Of a stretch of 64,000 nt of DNA, positions 48,554 through 50,939 are shown piece after piece; the first letter of the stretch is position 1; each line of letters opens with the position of its first letter. The DNA lies in the IMG/VR virus record IMGVR_UViG_3300045988_122518, one strand, 5' to 3'. The notes below the pieces were generated by a model that did no database searches, was not told the origin of the DNA, and saw nothing but the letters and a program-made list of their open reading frames with translations. Both the position numbers and the translations under genes were made by a program. This stretch comes from a virus.

Positions 48554-49315
48554 ATGGCTAATTGTACTACATAGGGTTGTGTCGGAACTTGCTTTGTAAG
48601 CTGTAGTAATGGATGTGACCATGGTTGTGGCGGTAGTTGTTCTATGTGTGAAACTTGCGGCACTAGCCAATGCCAAGGAAGTTGTAGAGGAGACTGTGAT
48701 GGAAGTTGCTCCGGATGCGGAGGAGTTTGTAGTAATAGTTGTTCAGGCGGATGTGATGGAGGTTGCTCTGGATGCGGAGGAGTTTGTAGTAATAGTTGTT
48801 CAGGCGGATGTGATGGAGGTTGCTCTGGATGTGGCAGTTCTTGCAGTACCGATTGTAGTGGAAGCTGTTCTGGCGGATGTGTTGGATGTAGTGCTAGTTG
48901 TCGCACCGATTGTAGTGGAAGCTGTTCTGGCGGATGTGTTGGATGCAGTGCTAGTTGTAGGCATGACTGTTCTGCTTGTACTGGCAATTGTACGGGAGGC
49001 TGCGATAATGGATGTACCACTTCAGCTAATGTAAATCTTTATAATTCTATTAATTTAAGAATCGTTTTATATGCTGCTGATATTGCAAATATTTATACTA
49101 TGTTAAATAAAGAATTATCTAGACGTGGATATAGTACTTTACCTACAAAAGTTTCTTCTAACAGTAAAGTTAATACAAACTTAAAAAATGAAATATTCAC
49201 AAATATTTCTAAAATGTAGAACACTTCTTATAATGGAAATGTCTGTACTAAATCTGAAATGCAGAAAGCAATTACTGCTTTAAAGTCTTTATATTCTAAA
49301 ATTTTAAAAAGTTAA
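48554..49315 (+). CDS. Cys-rich tandem-repeat protein (CSGGCDGGCSGCGGVCSNS units), candidate substrate of the adjacent radical-SAM enzyme (2 in-frame TAG)
   Basis: GGAGG ribosome-binding site; ~45 Cys in the first 160 aa; two pairs of near-identical ~66-nt DNA repeats. Confidence 0.45.
48690..48960 (+). repeat. tandem ~66-nt coding repeats (two pairs)
   Basis: ggaagttgctccggatgcggaggagtttgtagtaatagttgttcaggcggatgtgat and tgcagtaccgattgtagtggaagctgttctggcggatgtgttggatgtagtgctagttgtcgc each occur twice. Confidence 0.6.
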
Positions 49316-49341
49316 TTTATAAGATAAAAAGGAGAAAAATA

Positions 49342-49650
49342 ATGAAAACAATTACAGTAAATGCTAATAATGTAGAATTAAATGATAAATTAGAACGAGC
49401 TTATCAAGATCTTCTTGCTCGTCAAAGTATTATTACTTATATGATGAATAGCACTTCATTTAATAATATGGATACTGATAATTATAAAAGATATCATCAA
49501 GAATACGTTGAAAAATTTATTGAATATGATAAAATTAGAAATAAAGTTGGAAAATATTATGATTTAGAAAAATATGGTAATAATGCCTATTGGAGTATTG
49601 ACTTCCAAGCAAAAATTATTACAATAACAATTAATGATAATGCTGAATGA
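49342..49650 (+). CDS. hypothetical protein
   Basis: Track ORF between the Cys-rich gene and the radical-SAM gene. Confidence 0.4.
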   Translation: MKTITVNANNVELNDKLERAYQDLLARQSIITYMMNSTSFNNMDTDNYKRYHQEYVEKFIEYDKIRNKVGKYYDLEKYGNNAYWSIDFQAKIITITINDNAE

Positions 49651-50939
49651 GACGTAAATTCGAATAGTATAGTGATACAATTCAAAGATTATATCCAGAA
49701 CTATGGAAAAATGAAAGCGATAAAGTTTTTGATATAACTTTACAGGTCACTGACGCTTGTAATTTAAGATGTAGTTATTGTTATCAAACTTGTAAAAAAA
49801 ATCATTTAATGGATTTTGAAACAGCTAAAAAATATATTGATATGTTAATAGTAAATCCTTAGAAAAATGATTACTTTGACCCAGATAATATTATAGGTTT
49901 AGTCTTTGATTTTATTGGTGGAGAACCTTTTTTAAATTTAGATTTAATAGATAAAGTAATGGATTATACAATTTCTAAATTAATTGAAATGAACAGTCCA
50001 TTAATTTATTTTACAAGATTTTTAATTTGTACTAATGGAACATTATATTTTGATCCAAAAGTACAAAAATTTTTAGATAAATATAAGCAATGGCTATCTG
50101 TTTCTATTAGTATTGATGGTAATAAAGAATTGCATGATGCTTGTAGAAAATTTCCTGATGGCTCTGGTAGTTATGATATTGTAGTAAAAGCGATAAAAGA
50201 CTGGCGAGAAAAAACTGGAGAATATCCCTGCTCAAAAATTACTTTATCTCCTGATAATGTTATGTATTTAAATGATGCCGTAAAAGCTCTTTTAGATATA
50301 GGATTTACTTCTATATTAGGGAATGTAATTTTTGAAAAAGGTTGGACTTTAGAACACGCCAAAATTTACTATAAACAATTACAAGAATTAGGACAATATC
50401 TCCTTGATAATAATTTAGAAGAAGATGTATATATTTCATTTTTTGAATATCCAGATTTGAAATTATTTAGACCAAAAGATTGGACTAATAAAGATGATCT
50501 ATAGAATTGGTGCGGCGGAAATGGAAGTATGATTGCTATGAATTATACTGGTAATTTATACCCCTGCTTACGATATATGGAAGATGCTCTGGGCGATTCC
50601 GTCCCACCTCTTATTATAGGAAATGTAAATAAAAATGAAATAGCAACAACAGAAAAACAAAAACAATTAACAAAAGAATTAAAAGCAATTAATTCTTATA
50701 CTCAATCTTCTGACGAATGTCGTGAATGTCCTATTGCTAATGGTTGTGCTTGGTGTCAAGCATATAATTATCAAGATACTGGAATTCTTAATAAAAGAGT
50801 TACTTATATTTGTCCTATGCATAAAGCTCGCGCTCTTGCCAACATTGAATTTTGGAATAAATATTATAAAAAACATAATATAGACGAAGAATTTCCGAAT
50901 AATATGAAACAAGAGTGGATAGATGAATTATTGAATTAA
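49647..50939 (+). CDS. radical SAM enzyme with C-terminal SPASM domain (3 in-frame TAG)
   Basis: CNLRCSYCY (CxxxCxxC) cluster and C-terminal WCGGNGSM...CRECPIANGCAWC; track ORFs 49959 and 50529 share a frame with ATG 49647. Confidence 0.6.

What the first reader, a model, noticed from the sequence alone, without database searches (positions are those of the whole stretch)
48554..50939. Radical SAM/SPASM enzyme adjacent to a Cys-rich tandem-repeat protein: possible RiPP-like cross-linking pair
The gene at 49647-50939 has the CxxxCxxC cluster plus a SPASM auxiliary-cluster domain, typical of enzymes that install thioether cross-links on Cys-rich peptides (sactipeptide, ranthipeptide and SCIFF maturases). 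Immediately upstream, 48554-49315 encodes a protein whose first ~160 aa are about 28% Cys in repeated C-S-G-G-C-D-G-G-C-S-G-C units, built from near-identical 66-nt DNA repeats. In a phage this could be a cross-linked structural or host-interaction protein rather than a bacteriocin.
Basis: partly seen in the sequence, partly recalled or inferred. Interest (0 to 1): 0.6.

Follow-up and report, generated by a model that had tools for sequence, protein, structure and literature searches.

The report
Phage CXXX-repeat protein with radical-SAM maturase
A large gut phage that reads TAG as glutamine carries a three-gene set (a protein with 40 regularly spaced cysteines, a small helper protein and a radical-SAM enzyme) that belongs to a predicted but never experimentally studied cysteine-modifying system; the set recurs in hundreds of phage contigs, and in five of the six relatives I annotated it lies next to tail-fibre genes.

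Summary
Gene 48554-49315 encodes 253 aa with 40 Cys in aa 4-154 (26%, not 28%), spaced CX3C 29 times and CX2C 8 times. It is built from 57-nt (19-aa) near-identical repeats, not 66-nt repeats. Both genes contain in-frame TAG codons, which this phage most likely reads as Gln.

The enzyme (49647-50939) passes the curated cut-off of NCBIfam TIGR04115, "radical SAM peptide maturase, CXXX-repeat target family" (403 vs 350 bits). It fails the cut-offs of the PapB, SCIFF, sulfatase-maturase and QhpD families. The 102-aa ORF between the two genes is a divergent TIGR04116 accessory protein (hhalign probability 90%).

Of 86 viral and GenBank-phage loci with a related enzyme, 82 have a Cys-repeat ORF nearby on the same strand. 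Two of the other four are cut short on the relevant side.

The phage form differs from the bacterial form. It lacks the second maturase (TIGR04119) and Tat signals. Its targets usually carry a roughly 100-aa helical domain with no known structural match, and in the annotated relatives the block mostly lies in the tail-fibre module.

The chemistry (probably thioether cross-links) and a virion role are inferred, not shown.

The parts
48032..48061 (+). Promoter-like site (TTGCAA, 17 nt, TG-TATAAT) just downstream of the terminator at 47860-47894. It is the candidate start of the transcription unit.
   Evidence: This is a consensus match only; the number of such sites in the region is not above the shuffled expectation.
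48078..48539 (+). 153-aa ORF (2 TAG) of unknown function. It lies in the same terminator-bounded unit but is specific to this lineage and is not a core component.
   Evidence: Searches found no family. Homologues occur only in the close relatives L003-L005 and L007-L010.
48554..49315 (+). Substrate protein of 253 aa, with an AAGGAGG Shine-Dalgarno sequence 9 nt upstream and TAG (= Gln) at codons 7 and 222.
48563..49015 (+). Cys-repeat region, aa 4-154: 40 Cys, spaced CX3C 29 times, CX2C 8 times and CX4C twice. The remaining residues are mostly G, S, T and D.
   Evidence: Family-wide, 80% of Cys spacings are CX3C and 17.5% are CX2C.
48695..48958 (+). Two arrays of near-identical 57-nt (19-aa) tandem repeats, at 48695-48831 and 48848-48958. 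Copy number varies between strains, giving proteins of 215, 234 and 253 aa.
49016..49312 (+). C-terminal helical domain of about 100 aa (motif ...AxDhxxhxxxhxxEhxRR...). It is the hallmark non-Cys domain of the phage targets and sits at the N-terminus in most relatives.
   Evidence: Alignments A4 and A5. 77 database proteins match the profile. AF2 predicts a helical fold at low to moderate confidence. There is no PDB fold match.
49342..49650 (+). 102-aa accessory protein, a divergent TIGR04116 (CXXX_rpt_assoc) homologue. Its TGA stop overlaps the rSAM start codon (ATGA).
   Evidence: Direct score is E = 0.084, 13 bits, below the cut-off of 50. A profile of 20 phage homologues against a genuine TIGR04116 member gives hhalign probability 90.5%, E = 1.4e-6, over 86 columns. 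A counterpart lies directly upstream of the rSAM in nearly all loci.
49647..50939 (+). 430-aa radical SAM/SPASM maturase of family TIGR04115, with TAG (= Gln) at codons 7, 72 and 286. It has no N-terminal RRE domain.
   Evidence: The closest solved structure is CteB (5WGG), E = 5.5e-22, and the alignment starts at CteB residue 97.
50938..50976 (+). Intrinsic-terminator-like hairpin followed by a T-run, closing the unit.
   Evidence: 4 terminator-like sites found against 0.8 expected from shuffles.
7663..7752 (+). tRNA with anticodon CUA, needed to translate the five in-frame TAG codons of the two genes.

Best explanation
This is a phage-adapted, minimal version of the 'CXXX-repeat peptide modification system'. 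It has three core genes:
- a substrate protein whose N-terminal 150 aa are a strict CX3/CX2 cysteine register followed by a helical domain;
- a small TIGR04116-like partner;
- a TIGR04115 radical SAM/SPASM maturase.

Shown here: family membership of the enzyme, intact cluster-binding motifs, distant homology of the accessory protein, tight synteny and co-conservation of the three genes across phage contigs, selection on the Cys register but not on the residues between, and repeat-number polymorphism.

Inferred mechanism: in the anoxic host cytoplasm the enzyme cleaves SAM at its CX3CX2C cluster. The 5'-deoxyadenosyl radical abstracts a hydrogen from a residue in the repeat. A substrate Cys bound at the first auxiliary cluster then closes a thioether, as in PapB and CteB. 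Repeating this along the register would give a ladder of small rings, making a rigid segment that resists proteases and reducing agents.

The enzyme has no RRE domain of its own. The accessory protein, and perhaps the helical domain acting as a 'follower', would therefore hold or present the substrate.

Inferred role: the matured protein is a tail-associated or virion-surface component rather than a diffusible peptide.
For: Enzyme: TIGR04115 scores 403.3 bits against a cut-off of 350, and every other family is below its cut-off. The rSAM and 7-Cys SPASM motifs are intact. Its closest relatives with known chemistry form thioethers: CteB (5WGG) and PapB (192.7 bits; chemistry in PMC10739248).

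Accessory: hhalign probability 90.5% to a genuine TIGR04116 member. It lies directly upstream of the rSAM in nearly all loci and overlaps the rSAM start by ATGA.

Co-conservation: at least 243 IMG/VR stretches encode relatives. 82 of the 86 loci examined have a Cys-repeat partner.

Selection: 33 of 35 Cys columns are invariant against 59 of 101 variable non-Cys columns. Protein lengths step by 19 aa.

Operon: the unit is bounded by terminators at 47860-47894 and 50938-50976.

Structural role: in L055, L080, L028, L072, L039 and L001 the block lies beside baseplate, tail-fibre or tail-fibre-like genes, and in L072 and L080 it comes just before ORFs that look like holin and endolysin by sequence. 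The L042 partner is one 813-aa ORF that fuses the Cys region to two PF12810 glycine-rich domains. Targets have no signal peptide or leader; many start 'MAC...' directly in the repeat.
Against: No member of TIGR04115 has, to my knowledge, been characterised. My literature searches found nothing on it, so the thioether chemistry rests on analogy.

PapB needs an Asp or Glu acceptor. Here Asp is only 9 of 151 residues, and 7-10% of the X1 and X3 positions across the family. The acceptor is therefore unknown and many Cys may stay free.

In this window the block is not in the tail module. The Mtd_N-type fibre genes lie at 10.8-20.3 kb, whereas the block sits between an SPFH gene and PhoH/endolysin.

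No virion proteomics exist, and no cultured phage in the phage collection carries the helical domain.

AF2 gives no confident model for the Cys region (pLDDT below 50). The helical domain has no fold match that would assign a function.

The glycine-rich fusion partners fall in PHROG families of unknown function.
Confidence: 0.6

Rival explanations
1. The Cys-repeat protein works as a thiolate-rich metal or iron-sulfur binder, like a metallothionein. The radical SAM enzyme makes only a few modifications, or a different one, and most Cys remain free ligands.
For: About 26% Cys, with small residues in between. No obligatory acceptor residue is conserved in the repeat. 44 of 70 bacterial counterparts carry an RR motif in the first 40 aa, next to TatA/TatC in L002; Tat export is typical of cofactor-bearing proteins (established knowledge). 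AF2 finds no autonomous fold.
Against: A dedicated SPASM maturase and accessory protein are strictly syntenic with the target. The enzyme's nearest characterised relatives cross-link Cys. Tat export is equally explained by the need to finish cytoplasmic, oxygen-sensitive maturation before export, as for the QhpC subunit (established knowledge).
Confidence: 0.15
2. The pair makes a RiPP-like toxin or signalling product that is released when the host lyses. It would act on competing bacteria or on the host, not on the virion.
For: The enzyme family is named and modelled as a peptide maturase. Bacterial targets are small, with a median of 122 aa. Some phage loci have short partners of 48-68 aa. 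In the window the block lies near the lysis genes.
Against: The window's target is 253 aa and has a conserved folded domain. Other targets reach 813 aa with fused domains. No leader-protease or exporter gene was seen among the ORFs of the window block or of the eight relatives I mapped. In relatives the usual neighbours are tail genes.
Confidence: 0.1
3. The matured protein acts inside the infected cell, for example in host takeover, anti-defence or redox buffering, and is not a virion part. The tail-module neighbourhood in other phages reflects a common insertion site for accessory genes between the fibre and lysis genes.
For: In this roughly 195-kb phage the block sits among non-structural genes (phosphoesterases, SPFH, PhoH). 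The fibre-lysis junction is a known hot spot for accessory genes (established knowledge).
Against: The block is repeatedly adjacent to fibre genes, separated by only 13 nt in L039, and lies inside the baseplate-tail block in L055. Repeat-number polymorphism and fast-evolving X positions with a fixed scaffold resemble surface proteins.
Confidence: 0.12
4. The cysteines form a disulfide network like the CX3C cysteine-rich domains of cnidarian minicollagen and NOWA, and the adjacent radical SAM enzyme has another substrate.
For: The CX3C register is the same. A public annotation of homologue P0023 reads 'Nematocyst outer wall antigen'.
Against: Enzyme, accessory protein and Cys-repeat gene are near-universally syntenic. 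The enzyme belongs to a family defined by such targets. Most contigs whose records name a source are from gut, rumen or faecal samples, where disulfides are unreliable (inference).
Confidence: 0.03

Closest known systems
CXXX-repeat peptide modification system of Bacteroidales and Clostridia (NCBIfam TIGR04115 rSAM, TIGR04114/04117/04118 targets, TIGR04116 accessory, TIGR04119 second maturase). It is defined by comparative genomics and, to my knowledge, has never been characterised.
   Same: The enzyme passes the TIGR04115 cut-off. The target has the CX3 register. The small accessory protein is homologous. All three genes are adjacent and on one strand.
   Different: There is no TIGR04119 gene in the window or in the phage loci; 47 of 80 bacterial loci have one. 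There is no Tat-type RR signal (44 of 70 bacterial targets have one). Targets are larger and carry a roughly 100-aa helical domain, or glycine-rich domains. The system is phage-borne and read with TAG = Gln. The accessory protein scores far below the TIGR04116 cut-off (13 vs 50 bits).
PapB/PapA (freyrasin, a ranthipeptide)
   Same: This is the second-best family hit (192.7 bits). It has the same SPASM architecture and acts on repeated CX3 units. PapB makes six Cys S to Asp C-beta thioethers by H-abstraction and attack of a Cys bound to the auxiliary cluster (PMC10739248).
   Different: The score is below the cut-off of 340. PapA is a short leader-containing peptide with CX3D units. Here position i+4 is another Cys, and Asp is sparse.
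CteB/SCIFF (PDB 5WGG)
   Same: This is the closest solved structure (E = 5.5e-22). It is a thioether-forming SPASM maturase of a Cys-rich peptide.
   Different: TIGR03974 scores 133.9 against a cut-off of 425. CteB has an N-terminal RRE domain that the phage enzyme lacks (the alignment starts at CteB residue 97). SCIFF peptides have six Cys within about 45 aa.
QhpD/QhpC (maturation of quinohemoprotein amine dehydrogenase)
   Same: It is a precedent for a SPASM enzyme installing Cys thioethers in a protein subunit rather than a natural-product peptide (established knowledge). TIGR03906 is among the hits (105.5 bits).
   Different: The score is far below the cut-off of 453. QhpC has a few cross-links, is not repetitive, and belongs to a periplasmic enzyme.
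Minicollagen/NOWA cysteine-rich domains and HK97-type covalently cross-linked virion proteins (analogies only)
   Same: Minicollagen and NOWA use a CX3C register to build mechanically strong cross-linked material. HK97 shows that phages stabilise particles by covalent cross-links (established knowledge).
   Different: There is no homology. Those systems use disulfides or autocatalytic isopeptide bonds, not a dedicated radical enzyme.

Membership tests
TIGR04115 radical SAM peptide maturase, CXXX-repeat target family | Whole-protein score above the curated cut-off (350 bits) | tested here: met
   403.3 bits, E = 1.2e-120, aa 30-402 against profile positions 4-359 of 359.
TIGR04115 radical SAM peptide maturase, CXXX-repeat target family | CX3CX2C radical SAM cluster plus a SPASM auxiliary-cluster Cys pattern | tested here: met
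   C38/C42/C45, and C289, C307, C358, C361, C367, C370, C389, all invariant in alignment A1. Pfam Radical_SAM scores 42.1 bits (cut-off 29.5). Pfam SPASM scores 20.8 bits, just under its 21.5 cut-off.
TIGR04115 radical SAM peptide maturase, CXXX-repeat target family | Adjacent target with many CXXX repeats | tested here: met
   40 Cys, 29 CX3C spacings, 330 nt upstream on the same strand. A partner is present in 82 of 86 related loci. The target itself gave no NCBIfam hit at E <= 0.01, as expected for low-complexity sequence.
CXXX-repeat system (complete bacterial form) | TIGR04116 small accessory protein | tested here: inconclusive
   The direct score is 13 bits, E = 0.084, below the cut-off of 50; 5 of 20 phage homologues hit it weakly. 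Profile-to-sequence hhalign gives probability 90.5%, E = 1.4e-6, end to end. It is homologous but not a member by the curated threshold.
CXXX-repeat system (complete bacterial form) | TIGR04119 second (SPASM-like) maturase | tested here: not met
   tblastn with the L002 member (235 bits to TIGR04119) finds nothing in the window. In the phage loci it finds only SPASM-domain cross-hits. 47 of 80 bacterial loci have it.
CXXX-repeat system | Catalysed modification of the repeat cysteines | not testable with these tools
   Needs anaerobic reconstitution and mass spectrometry. No published characterisation was found.
PapB-family ranthipeptide maturase (NF047865) | Score above the cut-off (340 bits), and a CX3D/E acceptor motif in the substrate | tested here: not met
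   192.7 bits. The substrate repeat is CX3C, with Asp at only 9 of 151 positions.
SCIFF maturase (TIGR03974) | Score above the cut-off (425 bits), and a six-Cys SCIFF peptide partner | tested here: not met
   133.9 bits. The partner is a 253-aa protein with 41 Cys.
Anaerobic sulfatase maturase (TIGR03942) and other non-peptide SPASM enzymes | Score above the cut-off (349 bits) | tested here: not met
77.7 bits.

The most novel reading that the evidence does not exclude
Many phages of gut and other anaerobic communities post-translationally cross-link a tail-associated protein with their own radical SAM enzyme. The result would be a thioether 'ladder' rod whose length is tuned by gain and loss of 19-aa repeats. 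This would be the first radical-SAM modification of a virion component, and a redox-proof substitute for disulfides in anoxic habitats.
Probability: 0.3. Interest if true: 0.85.

Novelty: new variant of a known kind. Interest (0 to 1): 0.62.

Why it matters
The CXXX-repeat radical SAM system is one of the predicted maturase/target families for which my searches found no chemistry and no biology. This locus shows a compact three-gene phage version that is common: at least 243 IMG/VR stretches encode a related enzyme. Its targets are proteins rather than peptides, and in five of the six relatives whose neighbours I annotated it travels with tail-fibre or baseplate genes.

If the product is a cross-linked virion protein, this would add a new class of phage structural modification and a new use of RiPP-type enzymology on full-size proteins.

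It also gives a small, self-contained system for working out what the family does. There is no second maturase, no export step, and the substrate can be expressed once TAG is recoded.

Tried and rejected
- **Literature.** Searches for the CXXX-repeat system, TIGR04115, and phage SPASM or Cys-rich systems returned nothing relevant. Three look-ups by identifier were not held: PubMed 21478363 and PMC3133131, which I took from memory to be the TIGRFAM-defining paper, and PMC6622460, the ranthipeptide paper cited in PMC12373016.
- **Near-identical DNA in GenBank phages.** None. No cultured phage carries the helical domain.
- **Single-sequence searches with the C-terminal domain.** They found only close relatives plus a few stand-alone copies. 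A profile was needed to reach the rest.
- **AF2 of the helical domain.** The window copy gave pLDDT 66. A type-A homologue gave 70-86 for the three long helices and below 50 for the Cys region. Foldseek found no PDB match, and in BFVD only uncharacterised homologues, so no function could be assigned from the fold.
- **Fusion of a tail fibre to the Cys module in L039.** Rejected. The 582-aa 'fusion' came from reading through a genuine TAG stop; the two genes are separate and 13 nt apart.
- **In-frame TAG as a marker of late genes.** Rejected. HNH-like genes also contain TAG, and so does the gyrA ORF, whose single TAG (codon 9) may lie upstream of its true start.
- **The upstream 153-aa ORF and the downstream 160-aa ORF as system components.** Rejected. 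The 153-aa ORF occurs only in close relatives, and the 160-aa ORF only in those plus L075 and L081.
- **SPN3US-like jumbo-phage rSAM genes (about 27% identity) as the same system.** Rejected. They have no CXXX partner and a different second gene.
- **TAG = Ser, Leu or Tyr, as the 90-nt tRNA(CUA) might suggest.** Not supported by the codon-replacement data or by the invariant Gln.
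Full report
**What is in the sequence**

All genes of the region are on the + strand. The two genes of the finding are continuous only if TAG is translated.
- Gene 48554-49315 has TAG at codons 7 and 222.
- Gene 49647-50939 has TAG at codons 7, 72 and 286.

The window encodes a tRNA with anticodon CUA at 7663-7752, and many other ORFs need TAG read-through. TAG most likely means Gln:
- Codon 286 of the enzyme aligns with an invariant Gln in the motif QNWCGG of standard-code homologues.
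- Where close relatives lack a TAG found in the window, or the reverse, the other codon is CAA or CAG in 16 of 35 cases.
- A public gene call for a relative (P0006) also shows Gln at these sites.

**The substrate protein**

The protein has 253 aa. Residues 4-154 hold 40 Cys (26%). The spacing is CX3C 29 times, CX2C 8 times and CX4C twice, and the rest of the region is mostly G, S, T and D.

The DNA contains two arrays of 57-nt repeats at 97-98% identity. One unit is 19 aa, made of four CX3 steps and one CX2 step.

Close relatives (87-99% identical enzyme, on IMG/VR contigs of up to about 197 kb) encode proteins of 215, 234, 235, 239 and 253 aa; the 215-, 234- and 253-aa forms differ by whole 19-aa units. 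In these relatives 33 of 35 Cys columns are invariant, whereas 59 of 101 other columns in the same region vary. In the C-terminal domain only 22 of 98 columns vary. Selection therefore keeps the register, not the sequence.

**The enzyme**

It carries CNLRCSYC, IGGEP and a complete seven-Cys SPASM pattern. Its only above-threshold family is NCBIfam TIGR04115, "radical SAM peptide maturase, CXXX-repeat target family" (403.3 bits, cut-off 350). All other families are below their cut-offs:

| Family | Score (bits) | Cut-off (bits) |
|---|---|---|
| PapB | 192.7 | 340 |
| SCIFF maturase | 133.9 | 425 |
| CcpM | 127.7 | 500 |
| QhpD | 105.5 | 453 |
| Anaerobic sulfatase maturase | 77.7 | 349 |

The closest solved structure is the thioether-forming CteB (5WGG, E = 5.5e-22). 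The alignment starts at CteB residue 97, so the phage enzyme lacks CteB's N-terminal peptide-recognition domain.

ORF 49342-49650 (102 aa) ends in an ATGA overlap with the enzyme's start codon. Alone it hits TIGR04116 (CXXX_rpt_assoc) only weakly (E = 0.084). A homologous ORF of 77-113 aa sits directly upstream of the enzyme in nearly all related loci. A profile of 20 such ORFs matches a genuine TIGR04116 protein end to end (hhalign probability 90.5%, E = 1.4e-6).

The unit is bounded by terminator-like hairpins at 47860-47894 and 50938-50976, with a promoter-like site at 48032-48061. The 153-aa ORF at 48078-48539 lies in the same unit but is conserved only in the closest relatives.

**Co-conservation**

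A scan of IMG/VR found at least 243 stretches that encode relatives of the enzyme. I examined 86 loci.
- 82 carry a same-strand ORF with a run of closely spaced Cys within about 3 kb. Two of these, L078 and L079, were found only by a six-frame scan.
- L034 and L048 are cut off on the side where their nearest relatives have the gene.
- L070 and L086 are short contigs (4.3 and 4.6 kb). The only Cys-run ORF in L070 overlaps the enzyme gene itself.

In 71 distinct Cys regions, 80% of spacings are CX3C and 17.5% are CX2C. X1 is Ser or Thr in 47% of units, X2 is Gly in 41%, and X3 is Gly, Ser or Thr in 66%.

**How the phage form differs from the bacterial form**

A GenBank 'Bacteriophage sp.' fragment (L002) is in fact a typical Bacteroidales-type system. 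It has a target with a Tat-type signal, TIGR04115 (630 bits), TIGR04119 'CXXX repeat peptide maturase', TIGR04116, and then TatA and TatC.

Among 80 bacterial loci, 47 have a TIGR04119-like gene and 42 have the accessory gene. Targets are small (median 122 aa), and 44 of 70 start with an RR motif.

The window and the phage loci have no TIGR04119 gene and no Tat signal.

Phage targets usually carry a non-Cys domain of about 100 aa. Its conserved features are a motif ...AxDhxxLKxxhxxEhxRR..., a conserved P..G..I..EH..K stretch, and a C-terminal helix. In most phages the domain is N-terminal ('type A'). In the window it is C-terminal, and the protein starts directly in the repeat with 'MANC...' ('type B'). 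A profile of this domain finds 77 database proteins, nearly all 170-210 aa with a Cys tail.

AF2 predicts a helical domain: pLDDT 66 for the window copy and 70-86 for the three long helices of a type-A homologue. The Cys region is below 50. Foldseek finds no PDB match, and in BFVD only uncharacterised viral homologues.

**Where the block sits**

In the six diverged phage contigs whose neighbours I examined, the block lies in or next to the baseplate/tail-fibre module in five:
- L055: between a baseplate wedge subunit and tail fibre on one side and a tail protein on the other.
- L080: directly after an 862-aa tail fibre and before ORFs that look like holin and endolysin by sequence.
- L028: after a tail protein and a tail fibre.
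- L072: after a tail-fibre-like gene and before holin- and endolysin-like ORFs.
- L039: the target gene starts 13 nt after a tail-fibre-like gene.
- L037: the two flanking ORFs gave no tail-family hit.

In L001 the block lies between ORFs that look like tail fibres by sequence; these were not scanned against a family library. In L042 the target is a single standard-code ORF of 813 aa that joins the Cys region to two PF12810 glycine-rich domains.

In the window the arrangement differs. The receptor-binding-type genes (three with Mtd_N) lie at 10.8-20.3 kb. The block lies between a Band_7/SPFH gene and PhoH, followed by the endolysin and a holin-like gene.

**Interpretation**

Shown: this is a three-gene CXXX-repeat maturation module. 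It is a member of the family by the enzyme's curated threshold, with a homologous accessory protein and a co-conserved target whose Cys register is under selection.

Inferred: the enzyme installs thioether cross-links. This rests on analogy with PapB and CteB, where H-abstraction by the 5'-deoxyadenosyl radical is followed by attack of a Cys bound to the auxiliary cluster (PMC10739248). Also inferred: the accessory protein substitutes for the missing recognition domain, and the product is a tail-associated or surface protein.

The main weaknesses:
- No family member has been characterised, to my knowledge.
- There is no conserved Asp or Glu acceptor, so the acceptor atom, and even the fraction of Cys consumed, is open.
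- There is no direct evidence that the protein is in the virion.
- The window's own block is not in the tail module.

A metal-binding role for residual free thiols, an intracellular role, and a released peptide-like product remain possible.

**Novelty**

The family exists in NCBIfam/TIGRFAMs, and the enzyme and the Cys region each hit PHROG families (1802, annotated only as a radical SAM domain protein, and 6085, of unknown function). The kind is therefore known.

The phage-specific architecture has no TIGR04119 and no export signal, has protein-sized targets with a new helical domain or glycine-rich fusions, shows repeat-number polymorphism, and lies near tail genes in most annotated relatives. 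I did not find this architecture described in the literature I could search.

I rate it a new variant of a known kind, of moderate to high interest, mainly because it offers a tractable route to the chemistry of an uncharacterised maturase family and might reveal radical-SAM cross-linking of virion proteins.

Noticed in passing
window 7663-7752: The tRNA with anticodon CUA is 90 nt long. It has an extra region of about 21 nt, a U-U mismatch at positions 1-72 and a G discriminator. That is unusual for a Gln suppressor, yet codon replacements and an invariant Gln site point to TAG = Gln. A 90-nt tRNA-Tyr lies nearby at 8326-8415.
   Followed up: partly
window 1-26230: There are 15 tRNA genes in the first 26 kb. 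The contig family is about 195 kb. G+C is 33.5%, and every credible gene is on the + strand.
   Followed up: no
window 3172-3768, 5238-5840, 29901-30644, 36552-37343: These genes look like HNH-type homing endonucleases by eye; no family search was run on them. Two of them (3172-3768, 36552-37343) share an N-terminal 'ITGQ(R/K)FG(R/K)L' motif, and a third (29901-30644) has a related one. They carry 2-6 in-frame TAG codons each, so TAG use is not restricted to structural and lysis genes.
   Followed up: partly
window 8933-21381: This is a receptor-binding or tail-fibre region. It holds a 497-aa protein with Listeria-Bacteroides repeats (8933-10426, 7 TAG), three proteins with the Mtd_N major-tropism-determinant N-terminal domain (10833-12080, 12450-13697, 19192-20280), and an 861-aa Ala-rich, probably coiled-coil protein (13721-16306).
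   Followed up: partly
window 46471-47856: A 461-aa SPFH/Band_7 protein with a flotillin-like tail lies in a phage genome, immediately upstream of the operon. It has no PHROG match.
   Followed up: partly
window 53098-54399 and 54401-54796: The two-domain endolysin (N-terminal lysozyme-like domain plus amidase) has 8 in-frame TAG codons. It is followed by a 131-aa ORF that looks like a holin by position and by its hydrophobic N-terminal half; no transmembrane prediction was run.
   Followed up: partly
L002 (GenBank MT837480, whole 6.8-kb record): This record is deposited as 'Bacteriophage sp.', but its content is a complete Bacteroidales-type chromosomal CXXX system followed by TatA and TatC. 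It is probably not viral.
   Followed up: yes
L087 (Salmonella phage STsAS) 3154-5269; L088 (Erwinia phage Kwan) 1972-5398: SPN3US-like jumbo phages carry a pair of adjacent radical SAM genes (about 27% identity to the window enzyme) near virion structural genes. They have no CXXX-repeat partner. In Kwan a 70-aa ORF with three Cys lies two genes upstream and could be a different kind of target.
   Followed up: partly
L083 6900-9362 and L062 2895-4646: These are extreme family members. A 246-kb contig has two adjacent Cys-repeat proteins of 387 and 421 aa and further rSAM-like hits. L062 has a 583-aa ORF (2 in-frame TAG) with 126 Cys.
   Followed up: no
proteins P0031, P0036, P0049, P0054, P0063, P0067, P0073: Some homologues of the helical-domain targets carry a precomputed Pfam accession, PF27846.1. 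It is absent from the Pfam copy available here, so a very recent Pfam entry may already cover this domain or the Cys tail.
   Followed up: partly
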